From IMG/VR virus record IMGVR_UViG_2737471835_000006: a DNA stretch of 53,176 nucleotides; one strand, 5' to 3'. The first letter of the stretch is position 1. Every line of letters begins with the position of its first letter. Below, in pieces: positions 5,512 to 32,169 of this stretch. Source of the DNA: a virus (lineage: Duplodnaviria; Heunggongvirae; Uroviricota; Caudoviricetes). Below the pieces are notes generated by a model, which had not been told where the DNA came from, ran no database searches, and saw only the letters and a program-made list of their open reading frames with translations. The position numbers and the translations under genes were made by a program.

Positions 5512-7005
5512 TCAGGCTGTTTCTTTAAAAAGGGAGGCCAGTGCCTCAACTGTATAGTCATTATTAATACAGTACATTAACGTAATTGTTTGTGCCGGAG
5601 ATTTCGGACCAAAATCAACATTAATATAAAGATTGCCAGCGGCCAGACTTTCTTTTGTATTCAGCTCACCGTCTAACCACGCACGCCCTCCGTTAATCGC
5701 ACCCTGCTCCTCTAATTTGTGCAGATATGCGTTTATCGACTCGACAACGTCTGTTCCGAGATGCAGGTCTATCGGGCGATCAATAAAATCTGTCATCATT
5801 GCCCGGGCTATAGAATCTTCAATTACGTCAGCTGTCCGACGAACGCATTCAAACGACCATTGTGGATCCAGACTGCACAGATAGTTACCCCAGTGCCGGA
5901 ATCCATCGTAGCGAATAATGGTGCTGACCTGGCTGGCGTTCAGTAGGTTCGCTGTGCAGTTTGTCTCACCAATAATAAAATCGTCGATTTGTTCAAGCCC
6001 TGTTATTCCATAAATATTTTGATTCGACTTACTCCACCAAAACCCTTTTTCATTATCAATTCTGGCTCGTAAACCAGCGGCGATAGCTGAATATGGACGC
6101 GACAGATCACTGAGATCGCCAGCTGAAAACACACGCGGGCGTAGTATTTCCATGCGCGCGCTATATTTATGGCGGCGGTTAACGACGTCTGCGGGCGATG
6201 CCGTGCGTGGAGAATCAATATAGCCGACTCCACGTAATTTATTTGTGACTACCTCCAGCGCGGCAGCGACGTCGTCATTAGCACTGTAATCAGGTGCAAT
6301 CAAAATTCGTGGAGTCACCTGGTTTATCTGTCCCGATGTTAACATAGCGTTAATGCCGTTGATTACGTTCTCACGCTCTTTTGTCGCGTCTGTGTTTTCG
6401 TCTACGCGAACAACAACAATTAGCGCATCTGTCTGATTTAAAATATCAGTGATGGCTGCGGGGAGAGTGCCTGCTGCACCCAGGAGCGCCGCTTTTTTCT
6501 GACTACCTGCAATTAGTGTGGGTATGTTGACTGGAAATGGAGCGTCAGAACCGCCCGTCAGGCTCGTGACGGGCATCTGATAAACAATTCCATCATTTTT
6601 ACTGGCCTCATCCAACGCTACAAAAATATAATCCTCCGCGTTCCGTCCCTCATTGTGAGTCAGAACGTCTTGTGACAGCACCTCTGGCGTTGTTGTACTA
6701 TCTGTTCCGAGCGTTAATTTTATTGTCCCGTCCGGTAACGTGCTATATCCGTATTTAATTCCAGAAATGCCCTTCTTAATAATTTCAACTGCAAATTTAT
6801 TTCCGTAACTCCCTGAATAAACCGGGAGAAATGTCACCACATTATCTGACAAGGGTGACCCCCATGTTAATGAAGCTCTTCCTCCCAGCCCAACATCCGG
6901 TGCAGTACCAACAATCCCGATAACCGAAATATCTACCGCGCTGATCTCTTTTGTGCCGTCGTCGTATTCAAGCGTGCGGGGGCCGTGCAAAAAATTAGTG
7001 CTCAT
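5512..7005 (-). CDS. Contractile tail sheath protein (P2 FI-like)
   Basis: 497 aa; size, composition and position upstream of the tube gene typical of myovirus sheath proteins. Confidence 0.8.
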   Translation of the reverse strand: MSTNFLHGPRTLEYDDGTKEISAVDISVIGIVGTAPDVGLGGRASLTWGSPLSDNVVTFLPVYSGSYGNKFAVEIIKKGISGIKYGYSTLPDGTIKLTLGTDSTTTPEVLSQDVLTHNEGRNAEDYIFVALDEASKNDGIVYQMPVTSLTGGSDAPFPVNIPTLIAGSQKKAALLGAAGTLPAAITDILNQTDALIVVVRVDENTDATKERENVINGINAMLTSGQINQVTPRILIAPDYSANDDVAAALEVVTNKLRGVGYIDSPRTASPADVVNRRHKYSARMEILRPRVFSAGDLSDLSRPYSAIAAGLRARIDNEKGFWWSKSNQNIYGITGLEQIDDFIIGETNCTANLLNASQVSTIIRYDGFRHWGNYLCSLDPQWSFECVRRTADVIEDSIARAMMTDFIDRPIDLHLGTDVVESINAYLHKLEEQGAINGGRAWLDGELNTKESLAAGNLYINVDFGPKSPAQTITLMYCINNDYTVEALASLFKETA

Positions 7006-25795: not shown

Positions 25796-26074
25796 TTATG
25801 AGGCCATACCGTAGGCTTTTTTATGCATCCCATGGTCATAGCCCATATTATATGCTTCAAAAGCATCTTTATGACGGACATGCCCAGCCTGGCTTTCGGG
25901 TAAATCACCTAAAACAGAGTCATCAACCGCACGCGGAACGCCGATTAATGCATGCCACATACCTTTATCATAGGCACATCCACAACACTTGTGCCGCCCA
26001 ACGTTACCCTGATTTGCAGAAAGAACATCAAACATACTGTCGTGACGATGTGACTTTTTACAGATGTGTTTCAT
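25796..26074 (-). CDS. Hypothetical His/Cys-rich small protein
   Basis: 92 aa with many His and a CCGC motif; followed by a hairpin terminator. Confidence 0.35.
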   Translation of the reverse strand: MKHICKKSHRHDSMFDVLSANQGNVGRHKCCGCAYDKGMWHALIGVPRAVDDSVLGDLPESQAGHVRHKDAFEAYNMGYDHGMHKKAYGMAS

Positions 26075-26542
26075 TCATTGACCTATATCATTTTCGGTAA
26101 TGAATGCTTTACACGGGATCCCGGTTGAGGTAATCTCCCAAACCGAGATCTCAACGAAAGCATTAACCGATGTTTTTGTATGGCCCTGACAGTTGGCGCT
26201 GTCAGGGCTTTCCCTTTGATGCGACTCTAAAAACTTCGCAACCTCCAGATCCTATCCAGGACCAAGAAAAACTTCAATGAAAAGATCAAGTTAGATCTGT
26301 ATTTTTTTACAGATGTAATAAATCACACATGTAATAGCCTTCCCTTTCCGTTCTCATCTGGCCTCTTGTGGCATCCATTTTTTTAAGAAACATATGGACG
26401 CTTAAAAAACCACTAATGTCATGATTATCATGTATGTTTTTACTGGAAACATTGAGCCATCCACAATGCAGCGTAAAAAGCAAGCAATTCACAAGATTTT
26501 AAAGTGATTTATCTGGAAGACTTTACTACTAACAGTTAATAT

Positions 26543-26587
26543 CGTACCAGAAGTGCAGAATTTGCACTTTCACAGGAAAGTGGTACG
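26543..26587. promoter_or_regulatory. Nested inverted repeats upstream of the ImmA-like gene (candidate operator)
   Basis: CGTACCA ... TGGTACG arms enclosing GTGCAGAATTTGCAC, about 55 bp upstream of the 26642 start. Confidence 0.35.
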
Positions 26588-26641
26588 GAACATGTTGTCT
26601 ATATTTCGACCAACAATCGTAATGCAGTAACTGGAGGAGCT

Positions 26642-27130
26642 ATGGCTACCAACCCAAGAGAGCACGCCCGGCGAGTGCTGGACACGTTCTGGTGCGGGCG
26701 TGGTTTCCCTGTTGATCCAGCGAAAATTGCTCACGACATGGGATTAGATGTTTTTATTACCGATCTTCCTGGGAAAGTTTCTGGCGCACTGATTAAACAA
26801 AAAGATCAAGATCCAGCGATCTTTCTAAACAGTGATGACAACAAAGTTCGTCAACGTTTTTCATGTGGGCATGAGTTGGGGCATTACATCGCCCGGCAAG
26901 CATCGCATAGTGATGAATATGAGTACGTTGATTTACGTGGCGAAACCGCAAGCGCCGGAACGCATCCTGATGAAATTTTTGCGAACAAGTTCGCAGCAGA
27001 ACTTCTGATGCCGGTTGATGAGGTCAGAAAACTGCACGCTGACGGCCAACCAAGTTATATAATGGCGCATTATTTTGGCGTATCTGACGATGCGATGACT
27101 TATCGTTTAAAGAACTTGAGGTTGGGGTAA
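26642..27130 (+). CDS. ImmA/IrrE-family zinc metallopeptidase
   Basis: 162 aa; HEXXH motif in CGHELGHY; strong SD GGAGGAG. Confidence 0.7.
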   Translation: MATNPREHARRVLDTFWCGRGFPVDPAKIAHDMGLDVFITDLPGKVSGALIKQKDQDPAIFLNSDDNKVRQRFSCGHELGHYIARQASHSDEYEYVDLRGETASAGTHPDEIFANKFAAELLMPVDEVRKLHADGQPSYIMAHYFGVSDDAMTYRLKNLRLG

Positions 27131-27139
27131 CGCTTTAGA

Positions 27140-27745
27140 ATGCCATCGGATGACGATTTTAACAGCCGTTTCAAACAGGAAGTTGCACGCCGACTGAAGG
27201 ATTCCCTCAACCTACACCGTCAGTTAGCAGAAGAGGTTGAGCCGGGGGACGATGAAACCCCGGTTCAGTCTCCTGACGAAACTTCACCTCAGCCAAAGGT
27301 TTCGCACGCCCCCAAAAAAACGGCTGTCCGTATTCGCGGAATAGCCAGAAAAAGAGCTGCCGAAGCTCGCAAAATGGCTGTAGCTGCGTCTAGCAAAAGA
27401 ATTCCAACTGTTACACCCTCTCAACAAGTCACCCGTACTGAGAGTAAAATCTTGACCGAGTTCACATCTGTGAAACAGGTGAATTCACTTGATACCGAGC
27501 ATGAGCGCAAACAACTCAACAACAAAGATTTTGAAGCAGAAATCGCTCTAAAAAAACGATACGGGAAATGGTTCCTGATTATCCTTGCTTGCCAACTTCT
27601 GATAATGAATGGTGTATTTATTGCCGACGGCGCAGGTAAGCTGGAATTTGAGGATTTAACACTACAGTTGTACATGGGCGGTACTTTGACAGAGGTATTC
27701 GGCCTCGTGCTGGTCGTGACAAAATACCTTTTTAAACGCAAGTAA
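27140..27745 (+). CDS. Membrane protein with disordered N-terminus and two C-terminal TM helices
   Basis: 201 aa; starts 10 nt after the ImmA-like stop; C-terminal WFLIILACQLLIMNGVFIA and GGTLTEVFGLVLVVTKYLF hydrophobic segments. Confidence 0.5.
   Translation: MPSDDDFNSRFKQEVARRLKDSLNLHRQLAEEVEPGDDETPVQSPDETSPQPKVSHAPKKTAVRIRGIARKRAAEARKMAVAASSKRIPTVTPSQQVTRTESKILTEFTSVKQVNSLDTEHERKQLNNKDFEAEIALKKRYGKWFLIILACQLLIMNGVFIADGAGKLEFEDLTLQLYMGGTLTEVFGLVLVVTKYLFKRK
27667..27745 (+). repeat. Direct repeat copy 1 (3' end of the 27140-27745 gene)
   Basis: About 75 bp nearly identical to 31269-31346 (one indel, about four mismatches). Confidence 0.85.
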
Positions 27746-27854
27746 CTCTCTCTATGGAACAGACTTTAGTCGATTTAATGGAGAAGACCAGCAACCCCAA
27801 ATGACCAAGTAACAAGTGCTGGCCTTATAGACGATTACTGAGTGTGTTCGAGTG

Positions 27855-28259
27855 CTATCGTTGTACAATTCGTCCGTTGGGATCCAGCCACATCCCATCA
27901 GAAAGATACACCATTTCCCTGGGTTCATCCGTTACCTGCAGGTCATGGTAAATTGAAGTAAGTTCATTTTTAGGTGAAGGAGTGATATCTTCGCTTCCAA
28001 AGATCATATCTTGGTATTGTGCCCAATTTTGGCGAATTTCGAAATACATATCAACATCATAATCCTGCCCTCTTAGTTCATCATCTGAAGATATATTCAA
28101 TGTCTTTTTGAGACCGATGATGTTAAAGATCCACTTCTTACCACCTTTAATGAAGTATGCCCCAGTATATGCCTCTTCATCTGGTACAGCCTCATAACCT
28201 AAATTTAATGCTAATTGTATCTGTTCTGCTAATGTAAAAGGCTCTTTCCATCCACTCAT
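27855..28259 (-). CDS. Hypothetical protein (AT-rich cassette)
   Basis: 134 aa acidic protein with ATG start; no motif recognised. Confidence 0.4.
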   Translation of the reverse strand: MSGWKEPFTLAEQIQLALNLGYEAVPDEEAYTGAYFIKGGKKWIFNIIGLKKTLNISSDDELRGQDYDVDMYFEIRQNWAQYQDMIFGSEDITPSPKNELTSIYHDLQVTDEPREMVYLSDGMWLDPNGRIVQR

Positions 28260-28579
28260 AGCTTATTACCTACCTGTGAACCTGTTTGCTGCATGAAAAA
28301 CAATATAATAAAGCGTTATTGAAGACTATGATCCAAGTAAATTTAATCAAATACGTTTATAACGTATTTGCCTAAACAACTTCCAACGTATGATCCGCTT
28401 CTCGCTCTCAGCAGACCTTTATCTGCAGGTGCTTGTCTGCTGTGTTCCAGAAGCAGATATTATTATATAACTCTTTAACCCATGTATGACAAAATATTCT
28501 TGGAGCTTATTAAAACTTCATACGTCTAAATCACCTCTTCATTAGTGAATCAATAATTGTATAGTTAAAATGTAACACT

Positions 28580-29245
28580 TTATTTTTTATGATTAACTTG
28601 CTTTGCTAAAGAGCTATAAATCATATCAACCAAAACATATTTTTCGCATTCCCAAGGTTCACTAATAGATGGGTTTACTAAGTCTGGCTTCCCCCCCATT
28701 AGTGTATGAACATGCGAATAAATACCTATTCTTTCTGCGAGCTGCATTATTTTTATTTGATGTTCTGGTGGGAGCATTTTGTTTTTAAACCATGTTGTAA
28801 ATATATGCTTGGTAAGTTCCTTAGTACAAACAAACCATTCACCTTGACGTCTTTCGTTGCTAAATTTTTCATGAAGATAGTTTTCTTTTTCTGAACCACC
28901 TGGTTCCAAAGCGTGTAATATTAATTGACCAAATGCACCTGTCTGCAGGTTAGACAACCTTTTTAGCACATTATTGGAACGCCCTATTTTCACATAAAGT
29001 CCCGAGTAAGGGTTATTTTTATCTGAAGAACCGGCCCAAGTATCAGGCACTTGTAAAATATAATAAATACTACTTACTTTCCCACTCGATACATTATTTG
29101 CCCAAATCTGCCATTCTTCCATCCAGCTTTTTGCATCTTCTCTCGTGTCAAAGGCATGACTTGTATAGTAAAATTCACCAGTATCCAAGAACATATCGAA
29201 AACATATTTGCCATTCTCTATAATTCTTAAGTTGTCGGCTTTCAT
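28580..29245 (-). CDS. T5orf172 / GIY-YIG-superfamily domain protein
   Basis: 221 aa; central GLYVKIGRSNNVLKRLSNLQTG ... ENYLHEKFSNERRQGEWF matches the T5orf172 (Mug113-like) signature; AT-rich gene with large AT-rich upstream region. Confidence 0.55.
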   Translation of the reverse strand: MKADNLRIIENGKYVFDMFLDTGEFYYTSHAFDTREDAKSWMEEWQIWANNVSSGKVSSIYYILQVPDTWAGSSDKNNPYSGLYVKIGRSNNVLKRLSNLQTGAFGQLILHALEPGGSEKENYLHEKFSNERRQGEWFVCTKELTKHIFTTWFKNKMLPPEHQIKIMQLAERIGIYSHVHTLMGGKPDLVNPSISEPWECEKYVLVDMIYSSLAKQVNHKK

Positions 29246-29449
29246 GGAAGTTTCTCACAAAGTTACAGGAATATATAAAAACTTTACTACGCTTAGTATA
29301 TATTACCACCTGATTATGTATTATTTGATTTACACAACTTATTGCTAGTAATAACGGTTTTGATGTAATCTTCTCATCCCAAACTAACCTTCAAAATAGA
29401 TTTAATCTAAATTATATCAAAATATGCTCTCAGTTAAGATGGCTTATTT

Positions 29450-29647
29450 TTAATCAGTTAGAGGATCAACCTGATTTTCTCTAATAAGATTTCGTAACGC
29501 AGTACGAGCAGCCGCGACTTCTGTCATTCCATTTAGAACCACGCTGGAATGCCCTCCTCTAACCCCAAAGACTGTGACCATATCCTCTTCACGGAAGTAT
29601 TCTGCTTCATACTGAAGGCCATCTTTCTCTACGCGAATATATGACAT
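29450..29647 (-). CDS. Hypothetical small protein
   Basis: 65 aa ORF upstream of the T5orf172 gene on the same strand. Confidence 0.3.
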   Translation of the reverse strand: MSYIRVEKDGLQYEAEYFREEDMVTVFGVRGGHSSVVLNGMTEVAAARTALRNLIRENQVDPLTD

Positions 29648-30273
29648 AACAACCTCATTTTATTATCTTTTGTTTGAATGATATATCCACAAAATAATTT
29701 AAGCAATCTCGCCCAAGACGGTACGCCAAGCTTGCCTTGTAAGTATACTGTAAATATTCCGATAAAACTAATCATTCGCTTTTAGCGCATGTCCAAAAAA
29801 TGGTTCAGGTATCCTATCGTGCCAATATTCGCTCCTCACTCATAGCGGCTTTCAGGCAAGTTAACTAGTCCGCTCGGTGCCATATAGAGCCATGGTTATT
29901 AACAGCAGGGAATAATTCCACACTGAAATTAAATGTCTACCTTTTACAGTAGAAATAGTTCCTCCAGGACACTATCCATTGCCGGGCACAATCACTCGGG
30001 GTATAACGATATAAAATATGTTCATGATAGTGCAGGTTCGTATATTAAGTTCAGCAGCGAAAACATGCCTTACAGGTTTCCGGTTTTGGGAGCGTCGTTA
30101 CAGGATCCTGTGCATACCGTTCCCATCTGTTGAATTAAAGGTTTCACAGCCTTTGCCGATATCACCTTTTACCTTGCCTGTGATGCGTTCAGTGCTCAGC
30201 GTTGTTTACTGTAGCTCTCGGAACTGATTACAGACCGCGTCTTAAAAACCAATCCTTACTCTAAAGGGAATTC

Positions 30274-31197
30274 ATGAGATTAAAATACTCAGTACTCTTA
30301 CTCGCCATTGCCCTTACAGGCTGTGATAACAAAAAAGATGAGATCGGTTGTTCTTCGGAAATGACCCAATCAGCTCTCATGGATTTATTAAAAAAATCTG
30401 CTTATGAAGGACTCTCTGAACAGGTCGATAAATACCCTGATGTCACTAATCAGACCAAACGAAGCACACTGGACAAGATCAAACTAGCCGTCTCTGAAAT
30501 CTCCACAACATCAAGTGACACGGGCAGCACAATGAAAACTTGTGAAGGGACCGTGACGATGACTCTACCTGCGAACGAGTACGTCCAGCTTTCTGATGCT
30601 TACAGAAAGAATTTTAATCGTAATCTCGATAAGCAAATGGAAAATCTGTTTTTGGAGAACAACGCAAACGCCTTTTCAAAACGTATCACCTACACCGTGC
30701 AGGCGACCGACGATCAGAAAAACGTTTTTGTAAAAACCTCTTCTGATAATCCGATATCAGTGGGCGCCGCTTTACTGACATCGCTTTCCATTATCAACCC
30801 GATCGTTGAGCAGCAGAAAATCCAGCAGGCTAAGGATGCCCAACAGAGTCAAATTGAAGCGGAACAACAGGTGCAACTCAGGGCACAGGAACAGGCCAGG
30901 TATGAGGCGGAGAAGCAAATAGAGAGGCAGGCACAACTTCAGCCGCAAAAAGCTGAAAGCCTTGATCAGTCCCGAATGGCATTTGCGAATGCTGACTCTG
31001 ATTTGAATACAGTCTGGGGCAGGTTAACGCCGGCGAAGAAAAAAGAGTTGCTGCCTTCTCAGCGTCAGTGGATCAAAACTAAGGATGCTATGTGCGGTAA
31101 AGTTTCAATGCAGGGAACAGATGCTGAAGTCAAGAAAATGGTCGACTGCCAGACGCAAATGACCCTTTCAAGAATCGCTTTCCTCAGAAACCAATAA
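30274..31197 (+). CDS. Lipoprotein with C-terminal DUF1311 (LprI-like) domain
   Basis: 307 aa; signal peptide and lipobox LTGC; Gln-rich coiled-coil middle; C-terminal NTVWGRLTPAKKKELLPSQRQWIKTKDAMC pattern. Confidence 0.5.
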   Translation: MRLKYSVLLLAIALTGCDNKKDEIGCSSEMTQSALMDLLKKSAYEGLSEQVDKYPDVTNQTKRSTLDKIKLAVSEISTTSSDTGSTMKTCEGTVTMTLPANEYVQLSDAYRKNFNRNLDKQMENLFLENNANAFSKRITYTVQATDDQKNVFVKTSSDNPISVGAALLTSLSIINPIVEQQKIQQAKDAQQSQIEAEQQVQLRAQEQARYEAEKQIERQAQLQPQKAESLDQSRMAFANADSDLNTVWGRLTPAKKKELLPSQRQWIKTKDAMCGKVSMQGTDAEVKKMVDCQTQMTLSRIAFLRNQ

Positions 31198-31268
31198 CTG
31201 AAGTTTCCTTCAAGCTGGCGCCTGGTGTTAACCTGGTGCCAGCTTAGTCATCAAGTACATACGTAACA

Positions 31269-31346
31269 GTTTTACATGGGCGGTACTTTGACAGAGTATT
31301 CGGCCTCGTGCTGGTTGTGACTAAATACCTTTTTAAGCGCAAATAG
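31269..31346 (+). repeat. Direct repeat copy 2 (degenerate duplicate of the 27140-27745 gene end)
   Basis: Matches 27667-27745 but carries a 1-nt deletion, so is out of frame; lies just downstream of the antirepressor-like gene stop. Confidence 0.85.
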
Positions 31347-31374
31347 AGTATAACCGCGCCAAACATTCAACCTG

Positions 31375-32169
31375 TCAAAATGCTGAATCAGCAACGGATA
31401 CAACCGACTTTTTCCCCATTACCATCAATTTATCCAGCGTCATACTTCGCAGGTTGTCGCTGTGGATCACCAGATACCCTGCCCGCTCAGCGATCTCTTT
31501 GAAAGCGTCAAACGTCATCAGATGTTCGCCTTTGGCAACATGGCGCATCCTGGTCACTTTTCCATTTTTGATAGTGGTGATAAAAGAAAAATCTGGAATG
31601 GTTGGCTGATTTTCATCGAGTAGCAGGCAGTGGATGTATTCAATCGCCTCTAACATTTGCGTCTGTGACAGTTGTTCTATGTGAGAGACGGCGAAGCGTT
31701 GATGAATCATGGTGTAGGCATCGGGATACATCATGCCTTTCTTACCGACCAGCATATTAACGGCATCACGTAAGGGAGTACGGTCATCGGTAGTTGTACT
31801 CCGCCTCTCTGGACGCTGTCTAAAATAACAATCTTCCAGCTTTTCGAAAACTTCCCAGGCCTGTTCTGTTTCCAGCATTTTGGCATGGCGAGCTGCGCCG
31901 CATTCTGTCCAGAGGATGAGAGAGCGGACATTTCTGGCGATTTTCACAGGAGGTCTTAAAGACATGCTGTGCTTAAATTCGCGCAACTCCTCACCTTCGA
32001 GCAAAAAGTAATGCTTCCCGACCACGAATCGCTCTGAGTTCCGGTTATGGTTTTTACGAATGTAATCCGGCTCTGTGCCATAGAGGTTCGCGAGTAATTC
32101 GGTGGTGAGGACGGGAAGTTGGTTGTGGATAATCGGGGAGATGGCTGCTGCGGATACTTGAGTTGTCAT
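31375..32169 (-). CDS. Phage antirepressor-like protein (ORF6N-type N-terminal domain)
   Basis: 264 aa; N-terminal LLANLYGTEPDYIRKNHNRNSERFVVGKHYFLLEGEELREFK resembles the ORF6N domain. Confidence 0.55.
   Translation of the reverse strand: MTTQVSAAAISPIIHNQLPVLTTELLANLYGTEPDYIRKNHNRNSERFVVGKHYFLLEGEELREFKHSMSLRPPVKIARNVRSLILWTECGAARHAKMLETEQAWEVFEKLEDCYFRQRPERRSTTTDDRTPLRDAVNMLVGKKGMMYPDAYTMIHQRFAVSHIEQLSQTQMLEAIEYIHCLLLDENQPTIPDFSFITTIKNGKVTRMRHVAKGEHLMTFDAFKEIAERAGYLVIHSDNLRSMTLDKLMVMGKKSVVSVADSAF

What the first reader, a model, noticed from the sequence alone, without database searches (positions are those of the whole stretch)
28580..29245. T5orf172 / GIY-YIG-like domain protein as candidate anti-phage or phage-competition effector
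The central region has the T5orf172 signature (G-L-Y-V-K-I-G ... R-L ... E-N-Y-L-H-E-K-F ... R-Q-G-E-W-F), a GIY-YIG-superfamily domain recurrent in defence islands and in phage-encoded nuclease-like proteins. The N- and C-terminal extensions match nothing I recognise. It sits in the repeat-bounded AT-rich cassette with two small unknown genes on the same strand.
Basis: partly seen in the sequence, partly recalled or inferred. Interest (0 to 1): 0.65.

Follow-up and report, generated by a model that had tools for sequence, protein, structure and literature searches.

The report
Stand-alone T5orf172 nuclease, prophage cargo
A 221-residue protein with an intact GIY-YIG-type (T5orf172) nuclease core sits in a swappable cargo slot of an E. 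coli prophage, and its relatives lie beside known anti-phage systems and in Vibrio integron cassettes, so it is a good but untested candidate for a one-protein defence nuclease.

Summary
ORF 28580-29245 (-) encodes a 221-aa protein that matches Pfam MUG113 (6.4e-10) and T5orf172 (4.4e-7) above their curated cut-offs, with every quoted motif present.

It belongs to a small, sharply bounded family of about 215-225 aa. The acidic N-domain (YegP/UPF0339-like fold), the nuclease core and the C-terminal region always occur together. The catalytic-type residues (Y61, Y62, K86-I-G88, R96, E136) are invariant, and dN/dS is about 0.11-0.18.

The gene is not part of the phage backbone. Only 18 of 5426 complete E. 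coli genomes carry it; about 430 carry the same backbone with different cargo in this slot.

Relatives are single-gene integron cassettes in Vibrio. Others lie directly beside Shango, PARIS, AbiV, an Eco29kI R-M pair or PADLOC candidate genes.

The three genes are not one unit. The 65-aa gene travels with it only in Enterobacterales and also precedes unrelated cargo; the 134-aa gene is independent. The mobile block is 28382-29906, bounded by two copies of a ~90-nt hairpin element, not by the 81-bp repeat.

Best reading: a self-contained nuclease serving anti-phage or anti-mobile-element defence. This rests on context; no activity was tested. It matches no model of a validated defence system, and only weakly the PADLOC candidate PDC-S57.

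The parts
28580..29245 (-). Gene for the 221-aa T5orf172/MUG113 (GIY-YIG clan) protein; coordinates include the stop codon.
   Evidence: ORF list. Pfam MUG113 6.4e-10 and T5orf172 4.4e-7. phrog_8130 3.6e-78. RefSeq calls it 'GIY-YIG nuclease family protein' WP_021560857.1. dN/dS 0.11-0.18 against four orthologues.
29081..29245 (-). N-terminal domain, aa 1-55: three strands plus a helix, acidic, with a YegP/UPF0339-like fold.
28778..29080 (-). Nuclease core, aa 56-156: beta1 S-I-Y61-Y62-I, an 18-residue insert, beta2 K86-I-G88-R, helix with R96, E121/H125, G-E136-W-F, H147.
28583..28777 (-). C-terminal region, aa 157-221: long helix plus an extended segment, specific to this family. Invariant L158, P159, N191, P192, W198, D207.
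   Evidence: Alignment A1. No Pfam or PDB match. In the 1.84-billion-protein library it is found only with the rest of the family or in truncated or IS-disrupted fragments.
29450..29647 (-). 65-aa gene, co-transferred with the nuclease gene in Enterobacterales. A conserved 'leader' of variable cargo, not a specific partner.
   Evidence: 91% identical copy upstream of the orthologue in L012, L018 and L019. Absent from more distant homologues. The same family precedes an FRG/PDC-S15 gene and unrelated 441-aa and 270-aa genes in P4-type-integrase islands. dN/dS 0.12-0.20.
28382..28474 (-). Right (3') copy of the ~90-nt hairpin-forming inter-cassette element. Homology with other genomes ends at its last base, 28394.
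   Evidence: Alignments A3 and A5. RNA fold -29.3 kcal/mol, z -4.3. Covariance model 99 bits. The 21-nt core occurs twice in the window against 0.04 expected.
29816..29906 (-). Left (5') degraded copy of the same element. The breakpoint between alternative prophage cargos (29872/29873) lies inside it.
   Evidence: Covariance model 61.7 bits. Alignment A5. Breakpoints. This copy does not fold better than shuffles (z 0.28).
27855..28259 (-). 134-aa, very acidic (net -11) gene: a separate cargo module in the same slot.
   Evidence: No homologue next to any other family member. Its own family sits at prophage ends in Proteus (before a 371-aa gene and an ApeA-like PDC-S58 gene) and in a Citrobacter P2-like prophage.
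27768..29872 (.). Variable cargo slot of the prophage, replaced by 1925 bp of other DNA (a 232-aa gene) in about 430 E. coli genomes.
   Evidence: blastn breakpoints between the window and L015. Distribution of the two variants.

Best explanation
The gene encodes a self-contained, catalytically competent nuclease of the T5orf172/MUG113 branch of the GIY-YIG superfamily. It is carried as accessory cargo of a lambdoid-type prophage. Its most likely role is single-protein defence or exclusion: cutting the nucleic acid of an incoming phage or rival mobile element. No methylase, antitoxin or other partner is conserved with it. Self/non-self discrimination must therefore lie in the protein itself. 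It could come from the family-specific acidic N-domain or the C-terminal region holding the core inactive until a phage cue arrives, or from a preference for a feature of foreign DNA such as base hypermodification, as in CMoRE. Shown here: family membership, conservation of catalytic-type residues, purifying selection, cargo status, autonomy as a one-gene unit, and neighbourhood with defence systems. Inferred: nuclease activity, the defence role, the substrate and the trigger.
For: Membership and an intact active site: Pfam hits above threshold; Y61, Y62, K86, I87, G88, R96, E121, H125, E136 and H147 invariant in 28 homologues down to 39% identity. R96 and E136 occupy the positions of the catalytic Arg and Glu whose Glu mutation abolishes activity in Odn (E180A, PMC8263062) and SNIPE (E414A, 10.1101/2025.11.03.685801). 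The AF2 model is confident (pLDDT 89.6, pTM 0.85) with a GIY-YIG-like topology. dN/dS is 0.11-0.18.

Autonomy: in Vibrio the gene is alone between attC/VCR-type repeats of a cassette array. No neighbour is conserved across the family.

Cargo status: it is in 18 of 5426 complete E. coli genomes, while about 430 have the same backbone with other cargo in the slot. The region has low GC. Full-length homologues at 42-57% identity occur in gammaproteobacteria, cyanobacteria, Dehalococcoidia, Acidobacteria and Planctomycetes.

Defence neighbourhood in independent contexts: Shango SngABC directly upstream, with PDC-S31 and MkoC downstream; PARIS AriA/AriB; HEPN AbiV; an Eco29kI REase with a C5-methylase; PDC-M04A; a P4/CP4-57-type island. 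After the 65-aa gene it alternates with the PADLOC candidate PDC-S15.

Precedent for one-protein GIY-YIG defence: CMoRE/PD-T4-3 (PMC12923530) and SNIPE/PD-lambda-1.
Against: No functional data exist for any member; no paper in the library mentions the RefSeq accession. No PADLOC model of a validated system matches; the only hits are a weak partial one to candidate PDC-S57 (E 0.0037) and one of similar strength to a type II REase model. The protein has no recognisable DNA-binding or sensor domain, and its N-domain is acidic. Some homologues sit next to housekeeping genes (Moritella; nitrogenase-type neighbours). In the prophage the gene points the same way as the replication and Q genes, so it could be expressed in lytic growth rather than in the lysogen. 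Promoter-like sites are no more frequent than in shuffles. Guilt by association has a substantial false-positive rate.
Confidence: 0.55

Rival explanations
1. It is a free-standing homing endonuclease, as most phage T5orf172 genes are thought to be. It would be a selfish gene that cuts HEG-less alleles of its own insertion site and is copied in by repair.
For: T5orf172 genes are abundant putative homing endonucleases in ICP1, T5-like and other phages (PMC10448857). The gene shows presence/absence-type polymorphism in a prophage and has intact catalytic residues.
Against: It lacks the CapR/DUF723/DUF4397 zinc-finger DNA-binding modules found in 87% of those endonucleases: no Pfam hit and no conserved Cys. 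The flanking genes differ in every context, so there is no common target site. In Vibrio it is an integron cassette, moved by a different mechanism. The slot holds alternative cargo rather than a full versus empty state. No full-length copy exists in 50,697 phage genomes, and IMG/VR holds only three loci.
Confidence: 0.08
2. It is a weapon used by the phage itself during lytic growth. It would cut a satellite, a co-infecting phage or host DNA, in the manner of ICP1 Odn, rather than protect the lysogen.
For: The gene has the same orientation as the replication, Q and lysis genes of the prophage, so read-through from the early rightward operon is plausible. Odn is a stand-alone T5orf172 nuclease with exactly this kind of role (PMC8263062).
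Against: Most family members are not in phages at all: they are in integron arrays, chromosomal islands and P4-type islands. Odn gets its specificity from a RepA_N-like DNA-binding domain, which has no counterpart here.
Confidence: 0.15
3. It is the toxin of a two-gene toxin-antitoxin or addiction module, with the upstream 65-aa protein as antitoxin or immunity factor. The module would stabilise the element that carries it.
For: The 65-aa and 221-aa genes move together as one DNA block in four enterobacterial contexts, and both are under purifying selection. A small acidic protein upstream of a nuclease is a common toxin-antitoxin layout.
Against: The 65-aa family is confined to Enterobacterales, while the nuclease family spans several phyla without it. 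E. cloacae orthologues at 76% identity have an unrelated 151-aa upstream gene. Vibrio cassettes hold the nuclease gene alone. The 65-aa gene also precedes unrelated cargo: FRG/PDC-S15, and 441-aa and 270-aa genes. The two genes are separated by 204 bp, which is not the usual tight coupling.
Confidence: 0.08
4. It is a domesticated, non-cutting DNA-binding regulator, as CapR of the PLE satellite is, or a repair-type nuclease unrelated to conflict.
For: T5orf172 was first described as a DNA-binding module (the name is still used in the BFVD hits). CapR shows that domestication happens (PMC10448857).
Against: The catalytic-type Arg and Glu and the GIY/KIG motifs are invariant across the family, which is not expected after loss of catalysis. 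There is no DNA-binding domain. The distribution is patchy, on mobile elements, and not that of a repair gene.
Confidence: 0.06

Closest known systems
SNIPE (PD-lambda-1), a single-protein membrane-bound GIY-YIG nuclease defence of E. coli (bioRxiv 10.1101/2025.11.03.685801)
   Same: One polypeptide. A GIY-YIG-type nuclease whose conserved Glu is essential. No methylase partner. Self-protection is built into the protein. Carried by some E. coli strains only.
   Different: SNIPE has an N-terminal transmembrane segment and a DUF4041 DNA/tape-measure-binding domain, with the nuclease at the C-terminus. The window protein has no hydrophobic segment (max KD19 0.49) and no DUF4041. Instead it has an acidic YegP-like N-domain and its own C-terminal region. 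The PADLOC PD-lambda-1 models did not match.
CMoRE (PD-T4-3), a single-protein GIY-YIG type IV restriction enzyme for 5hmC/glucosyl-hmC DNA (PMC12923530)
   Same: A stand-alone GIY-YIG defence nuclease that needs no partner. Discrimination comes from an appended domain, and the enzyme is autoinhibited by an acidic element. This is a plausible model for how the window protein could avoid self-damage.
Odn (ICP1 gp88), the T5orf172 homing endonucleases of ICP1/T5-like phages, and CapR of PLE (PMC8263062, PMC10448857)
   Same: The same Pfam domain (T5orf172). The same conserved Arg and Glu. Use of the domain in conflicts between mobile elements.
   Different: Those proteins carry sequence-specific DNA-binding modules (RepA_N-like or CxxC zinc fingers) and live in lytic phages or their satellite. 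The window protein has none of these modules, and its family is mostly outside phages.
PADLOC candidate PDC-S57 (a computationally proposed single-gene defence candidate)
   Same: Weak similarity over the nuclease core (E 0.0037, aa 83-157). Single-gene candidate status.
   Different: Only the core aligns, to positions 18-98 of a 212-position profile. The score is far below what true members would give, so this is not the same family.

Membership tests
GIY-YIG superfamily, T5orf172/MUG113 branch (Pfam PF10544, PF13455) | Profile match above the curated gathering score | tested here: met
   MUG113 39.9 bits (cut-off 22.3) and T5orf172 30.8 bits (cut-off 20) at aa 74-152. All 33 homologues that cover the core carry both domains in the precomputed annotation; the one 134-aa N-terminal fragment carries none.
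GIY-YIG superfamily, T5orf172/MUG113 branch (Pfam PF10544, PF13455) | First-strand 'GIY' and second-strand 'YIG' motifs | tested here: met
   S-I-Y61-Y62-I and K86-I87-G88 are invariant in 28 sequences. The second motif has Lys in place of Tyr. An 18-residue insert separates the two strands.
GIY-YIG superfamily, T5orf172/MUG113 branch (Pfam PF10544, PF13455) | Catalytic Arg about 10 residues after the second motif, and a metal-binding Glu | tested here: met
   R96 (10 residues after K86) and E136 (in G-E-W-F) are invariant. Equivalence to I-TevI R27/E75 and Odn E180 is by alignment logic, not by a structure superposition that I could inspect.
GIY-YIG superfamily, T5orf172/MUG113 branch (Pfam PF10544, PF13455) | Three-stranded sheet with flanking helices (GIY-YIG fold) | tested here: met
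GIY-YIG superfamily, T5orf172/MUG113 branch (Pfam PF10544, PF13455) | Metal-dependent endonuclease activity | not testable with these tools
   Needs purified protein.
T5orf172 homing endonucleases (ICP1/T5-like type) | One or more CapR/DUF723/DUF4397 zinc-finger DNA-binding modules | tested here: not met
   No such Pfam hit even at E<=1. Only 2 Cys, neither conserved.
T5orf172 homing endonucleases (ICP1/T5-like type) | Insertion beside a conserved (usually essential) phage gene, with HEG-less alleles of the same site | tested here: not met
   The flanks differ in every context. In the prophage the slot holds alternative cargo. Vibrio copies are integron cassettes.
SNIPE / PD-lambda-1 | N-terminal membrane anchor plus DUF4041, with a C-terminal nuclease; match to the PADLOC model | tested here: not met
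   No PADLOC PD-lambda-1 hit at E<=0.1. No DUF4041. Maximum 19-residue hydropathy 0.49.
CMoRE / PD-T4-3 | 'GIYxY-YIG' motif, C-terminal modified-cytosine sensor, match to the PADLOC model | tested here: not met
   The motif here is I-Y-Y-I-L (no Tyr at +2). No PADLOC hit. Preference for modified DNA was not testable.
Anti-phage defence gene (operational definition) | Recurrent location within defence islands or mobile-element cargo hotspots | tested here: met
   Immediate neighbours are Shango, PARIS, AbiV, an Eco29kI R-M pair, PDC-M04A and PDC-S31/MkoC in separate lineages. Other contexts are a prophage cargo slot and integron arrays. This is a qualitative count over about 10 resolved contexts, not a genome-wide statistic.
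Anti-phage defence gene (operational definition) | Reduces phage plating or burst when expressed in a naive host | not testable with these tools
   Needs an experiment. No report was found for this protein.
Integron gene cassette | A single ORF bounded by attC-type repeats in an array | tested here: met
   Met for the Vibrio homologues only. In L008 the gene 6001-6702 lies between repeat copies at 5909-6038 and 6701-6836, within an array of 14-17 copies; L033 is likewise an array of the same kind of repeats (up to 13 copies per family) around its copy. The window copy is not in an integron, and its flanking hairpin element lacks the attC R-box consensus, judging by the sequence.

The most novel reading that the evidence does not exclude
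The family may be a previously unrecognised one-protein immune nuclease. Its family-specific acidic YegP-like N-domain and C-terminal region would form a new kind of built-in sensor or autoinhibitor. In Enterobacterales it may also be shuffled between prophages and islands as a gene cassette whose borders are a so far undescribed ~90-nt hairpin element, which would act as a recombination site analogous to, but distinct from, integron attC.
Probability: 0.15. Interest if true: 0.75.

Novelty: new member of a known kind. Interest (0 to 1): 0.45.

Why it matters
If the protein protects against phages, it adds a compact (221 aa), partner-free nuclease to the defence repertoire. It would raise a clear mechanistic question: how does a soluble GIY-YIG nuclease with no DNA-binding module, methylase or membrane anchor spare its own chromosome? 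The cross-phylum spread at 42-57% identity, and the occurrence as a single-gene integron cassette, suggest a function that works in many hosts without host-specific partners. That would also make it a candidate tool enzyme. The slot analysis shows that this prophage family carries a swappable cargo position, and it points to several other untested cargo genes. If the protein shows no phenotype, it remains one more uncharacterised T5orf172 protein, of which about 29,600 cluster representatives exist.

Tried and rejected
- Megablast of the cassette against 50,697 phage genomes found no match. tblastn against phages and plasmids found only core-domain hits in proteins of other architectures.
- NCBIfam gave no hit. 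The PDB sequence profile search gave only spurious ribosomal-protein hits. Foldseek against the PDB gave nothing at E<=0.001. The afdb50 fold library was unavailable.
- PADLOC matched no model of a validated system.
- The promoter/terminator scan found no more promoter-like sites than in shuffles. It found one terminator-like hairpin at 28348-28370, downstream of the block.
- Rfam found nothing credible in 26000-32000.
- I considered that the three same-strand genes form one operon or system. I rejected this because the 134-aa and 65-aa genes have their own, different distributions.
- I considered that the 81-bp direct repeat marks the cassette. I rejected this because both prophage variants have it.
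- I tested whether the hairpin element has covariation support. Pairing is kept in 86% of cells, but no measure exceeds the shuffles, so the structure is not proven beyond sequence palindromy.
- Apparent hits to the C-terminal or N-terminal region alone (P0057, P0180, P0102) turned out to be IS-disrupted or frameshifted fragments, not new architectures.
- A 391-aa ORF in Dehalococcoidia (L028) is probably an artefact of my crude ORF picking, not a fusion.

Full report
**1. The observation**

The ORF at 28580-29245 (- strand) is real and encodes 221 aa. Pfam hmmscan places aa 74-152 in MUG113 (PF13455, E 6.4e-10, 39.9 bits against a cut-off of 22.3). It also places them in T5orf172 (PF10544, E 4.4e-7, 30.8 bits against 20). 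From established knowledge, both models belong to the GIY-YIG clan.

PHROGs gives phrog_8130 (E 3.6e-78, function unknown), and RefSeq annotates the identical protein as 'GIY-YIG nuclease family protein'. The N- and C-terminal parts match nothing in Pfam, NCBIfam or PDB sequences. GC is 0.32-0.37 across 28000-29800, against 0.45-0.52 on both sides.

**2. Where it sits**

The window is a prophage integrated beside tRNA-Ser/mtfA in E. coli. The gene lies between the replication module and Q, in a stretch of mixed-orientation accessory genes:

- an ImmA/IrrE protease at 26642-27130;
- a 201-aa protein with a hydrophobic (predicted transmembrane) segment at 27140-27745;
- the three - strand ORFs;
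- an LprI-like lipoprotein at 30274-31197;
- an ORF6N anti-repressor at 31375-32169.

Only 18 of 5426 complete E. coli genomes hold the cassette. About 430 hold the same backbone at about 97% identity but with 1925 bp of unrelated DNA (a 232-aa gene) in its place. The exchange points are window 27767/27768 and 29872/29873. The region is therefore a swappable cargo slot, not phage backbone.

**3. The family**

The word-indexed search of 5.8 billion proteins found 34 clusters, nearly all 211-242 aa and aligned end to end. The exhaustive HMM search of 1.84 billion representatives found only 12 hits below 1e-30, several of them fragments. A further 29,613 proteins share nothing but the core, profile positions ~81-155. 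Apparent stand-alone N- or C-terminal hits are IS-disrupted or frameshifted remnants. The three parts therefore always travel together.

In 28 aligned members (down to 39% identity) the invariant residues are:

- W45 and W48;
- Y61, Y62, P67, W70, G72 and G82;
- K86-I87-G88 and R96;
- E121, H125, R132, R133 and G135-E136-W137-F138;
- H147, L158, P159, N191, P192, W198 and D207.

R96 lies ten residues after the second-strand motif and E136 lies in GEWF. These are the positions of the catalytic Arg and Glu of GIY-YIG enzymes. The equivalent Glu is essential in the T5orf172 nuclease Odn (E180A, PMC8263062) and in SNIPE (E414A, 10.1101/2025.11.03.685801). dN/dS against four orthologues is 0.11-0.18.

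**4. Structure**

AlphaFold2 with the family alignment gives pLDDT 89.6 and pTM 0.85.

- The C-terminal 65 residues (a long helix plus an extended segment) have no structural match.

**5. Context of relatives**

Full-length homologues at 42-57% identity occur in Vibrio, Photobacterium, Pseudoalteromonas, Moritella, Colwellia and Thiohalophilus. They also occur in cyanobacteria, Dehalococcoidia, Acidobacteria and Planctomycetes. That distribution implies horizontal transfer. The neighbours differ every time:

| Host and locus | Neighbourhood |
|---|---|
| Citrobacter (L018; same island in L055) | Directly after Shango SngA/B/C; followed by PDC-S31 and a Mokosh-type MkoC helicase |
| E. cloacae (L003-L007) | Convergent with PARIS AriA/AriB |
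| Enterobacter genomosp. O (L019) | Next to a HEPN AbiV gene |
| Vibrio sp. Of7-15 (L024) | Next to an Eco29kI restriction enzyme and C5-methylase |
| Thiohalophilus (L002) | Next to PDC-M04A |
| Another Enterobacter (L012) | In an AlpA/YfjJ/WYL/anti-restriction island |
| Colwellia (L013) | Follows a CTX-like filamentous prophage |
| V. vulnificus (L008), V. pacinii (L033) | Alone between attC/VCR-type repeats of a long cassette array |
| Moritella (L021) | Borders metabolic genes |

Nitrogenase-type proteins are among the neighbours scanned in bulk, probably in the cyanobacterial loci. About half of the ten resolved contexts therefore have a known or candidate defence gene as the immediate neighbour. 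The integron cassettes show that the protein is a functional unit on its own.

**6. The other two ORFs**

The 65-aa gene is 91% identical upstream of the orthologues in L012, L018 and L019 and is absent elsewhere. Its family is confined to Enterobacterales. It also precedes an FRG-domain PDC-S15 gene and unrelated 441-aa and 270-aa genes, in P4-type-integrase islands that carry CTD/MC-type conflict systems. It is thus a conserved leader of variable cargo, not a dedicated partner.

The 134-aa gene (net charge -11) never accompanies the nuclease outside this prophage. Its own family sits at prophage ends in Proteus, before a 371-aa gene and an ApeA-like gene, and next to ogr in a Citrobacter P2-like prophage.

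**7. Borders of the mobile block**

DNA shared with L012, L018, L019 and L055 runs from window 28394 to about 29743-29846. Both ends carry the motif CTGCTnnGAGCGAGnAGCGGA in direct orientation: two matches in the window against 0.04 expected. The motif is the 3' arm of a ~90-nt element. Its right copy folds into a long hairpin (-29.3 kcal/mol, z -4.3); the left copy is degraded (z 0.28).

A covariance model finds the element in several other places:

- at both ends of the block in the window, L018 and L055;
- three times between DJ-1 and DinB cassettes in an E. coli island (L040);
- between an FRG gene and a helicase gene in another island (L041);
- after the 134-aa and 371-aa genes in Proteus;
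- at the edge of the alternative cargo in L015.

The breakpoint 29872/29873 between the two prophage cargos falls inside the left copy. Pairing is kept in 86% of cells, but covariation does not exceed shuffles. Its orientation relative to the genes is not constant. I therefore read it as a terminator-like inter-cassette element that offers homology for cargo exchange. An active recombination site is possible but not shown. The 81-bp repeat (27664-27744 / 31266-31345) is a duplicated 3' end of the 201-aa gene, present in both prophage variants, and is not the cassette border.

**8. How it most likely works**

Shown: a conserved, selected, probably catalytically intact GIY-YIG-type core in a compact three-part protein; cargo status; autonomy; defence neighbourhoods.

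Inferred: it cuts nucleic acid of invaders. No partner is conserved, so protection of self must be intrinsic. Two models fit known single-protein GIY-YIG systems. One is preference for modified DNA with autoinhibition by an acidic element, as in CMoRE (PMC12923530). The other is activation or positioning by an appended domain, as in SNIPE. The acidic N-domain and the invariant C-terminal residues are the candidates for that role.

I put 0.55 on the defence/exclusion nuclease reading. The rivals are:

- a phage-side weapon in lytic growth, 0.15;
- a homing endonuclease, 0.08;
- a toxin with the 65-aa protein as antitoxin, 0.08;
- a domesticated regulator or repair enzyme, 0.06.

**9. Comparison with known systems, and novelty**

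The protein is a member of the T5orf172/MUG113 branch of GIY-YIG; all sequence and fold criteria are met, and activity is untested. It is not a member of the ICP1-type homing endonucleases (no zinc fingers, no common target), of SNIPE (no anchor, no DUF4041, no PADLOC hit) or of CMoRE (different motif and architecture, no PADLOC hit). It touches PADLOC candidate PDC-S57 only weakly (E 0.0037).

No paper in the library mentions the protein. T5orf172 and other GIY-YIG nucleases in conflict roles are established, so this is a new member (a new family) of a known kind, with an unusual domain set.

Interest is moderate. It is a well-supported candidate with a clear experiment, not a surprise. The hairpin-bounded cassette traffic is the least expected thing seen, and it remains unresolved.

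Noticed in passing
window 28382-28474 and 29816-29906 (- strand); also L040 5201-5289, 5987-6080, 6688-6779; L041 5978-6071; L048/L049 5543-5626 and 6979-7065; L015 4749-4841: A ~90-nt hairpin-capable element recurs at the 3' ends of, or between, unrelated cargo genes in Enterobacterales prophages and islands. The cargo includes T5orf172, DJ-1, DinB, FRG, and 134-aa and 371-aa genes. One cargo-exchange breakpoint lies inside it. It has no Rfam match and no covariation support. It may be a terminator that doubles as a recombination hotspot, or an unrecognised attachment site.
   Followed up: partly
window 27855-28259 (-): The 134-aa protein is very acidic (net -11). Its family sits at prophage ends next to ApeA-like and other cargo in Proteus, and next to ogr in a Citrobacter P2-like prophage. 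Size and charge recall DNA-mimic anti-restriction proteins. No domain match was found.
   Followed up: partly
window 26642-27745 (+): An ImmA/IrrE metalloprotease matches the PADLOC capP model (CBASS-associated protease, E 2.4e-25). It is followed 9 bp later by a 201-aa protein (phrog_5346) with a C-terminal hydrophobic segment (KD19 2.25 at aa 144). The pair is on the strand opposite to the phage late genes. It may be a protease-controlled membrane effector.
   Followed up: no
window 27664-27744 and 31266-31345: An 81-bp direct repeat (92-97% identical). The second copy is an orphan duplicate of the 3' end of the 201-aa gene. It is present in both prophage cargo variants, so it is older than the cargo swap. 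It brackets the cargo slot plus the LprI-like gene.
   Followed up: yes
window ~30266-30309 and ~26848-26882: CRISPR arrays of several E. coli genomes contain spacers matching these prophage positions (the start of the LprI-like gene at 93% identity, and the ImmA gene at 100%).
   Followed up: no
L015 3323-4021 (same slot in ~430 E. coli genomes): The alternative cargo is a 232-aa protein with no Pfam match and a weak PADLOC hit to a DRT-associated transmembrane protein model (RTasTM, E 1.8e-5). About 1.2 kb of apparently non-coding DNA lies beside it.
   Followed up: partly
L012 3176-4892 (-): The Enterobacter island that holds the orthologue also holds a second, unrelated T5orf172/MUG113 protein (268 aa, core at the C-terminus). 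Its start lies 2 bp after the end of a 302-aa gene of unknown function. Neither matches PADLOC.
   Followed up: no
L026 and L027 (cyanobacteria), neighbours of the homologue: Five nitrogenase-type (Oxidored_nitro) proteins are among the bulk-scanned neighbours, probably in these two heterocyst-former loci. The gene may lie in or beside a nif-region insertion element. I did not assign the hits to loci individually.
   Followed up: no
L018 10792-11903: An IS3-family element is inserted 42 bp after the stop codon of the Citrobacter orthologue. It splits the block from its 3' hairpin element. The otherwise identical island in L055 lacks the IS.
   Followed up: yes
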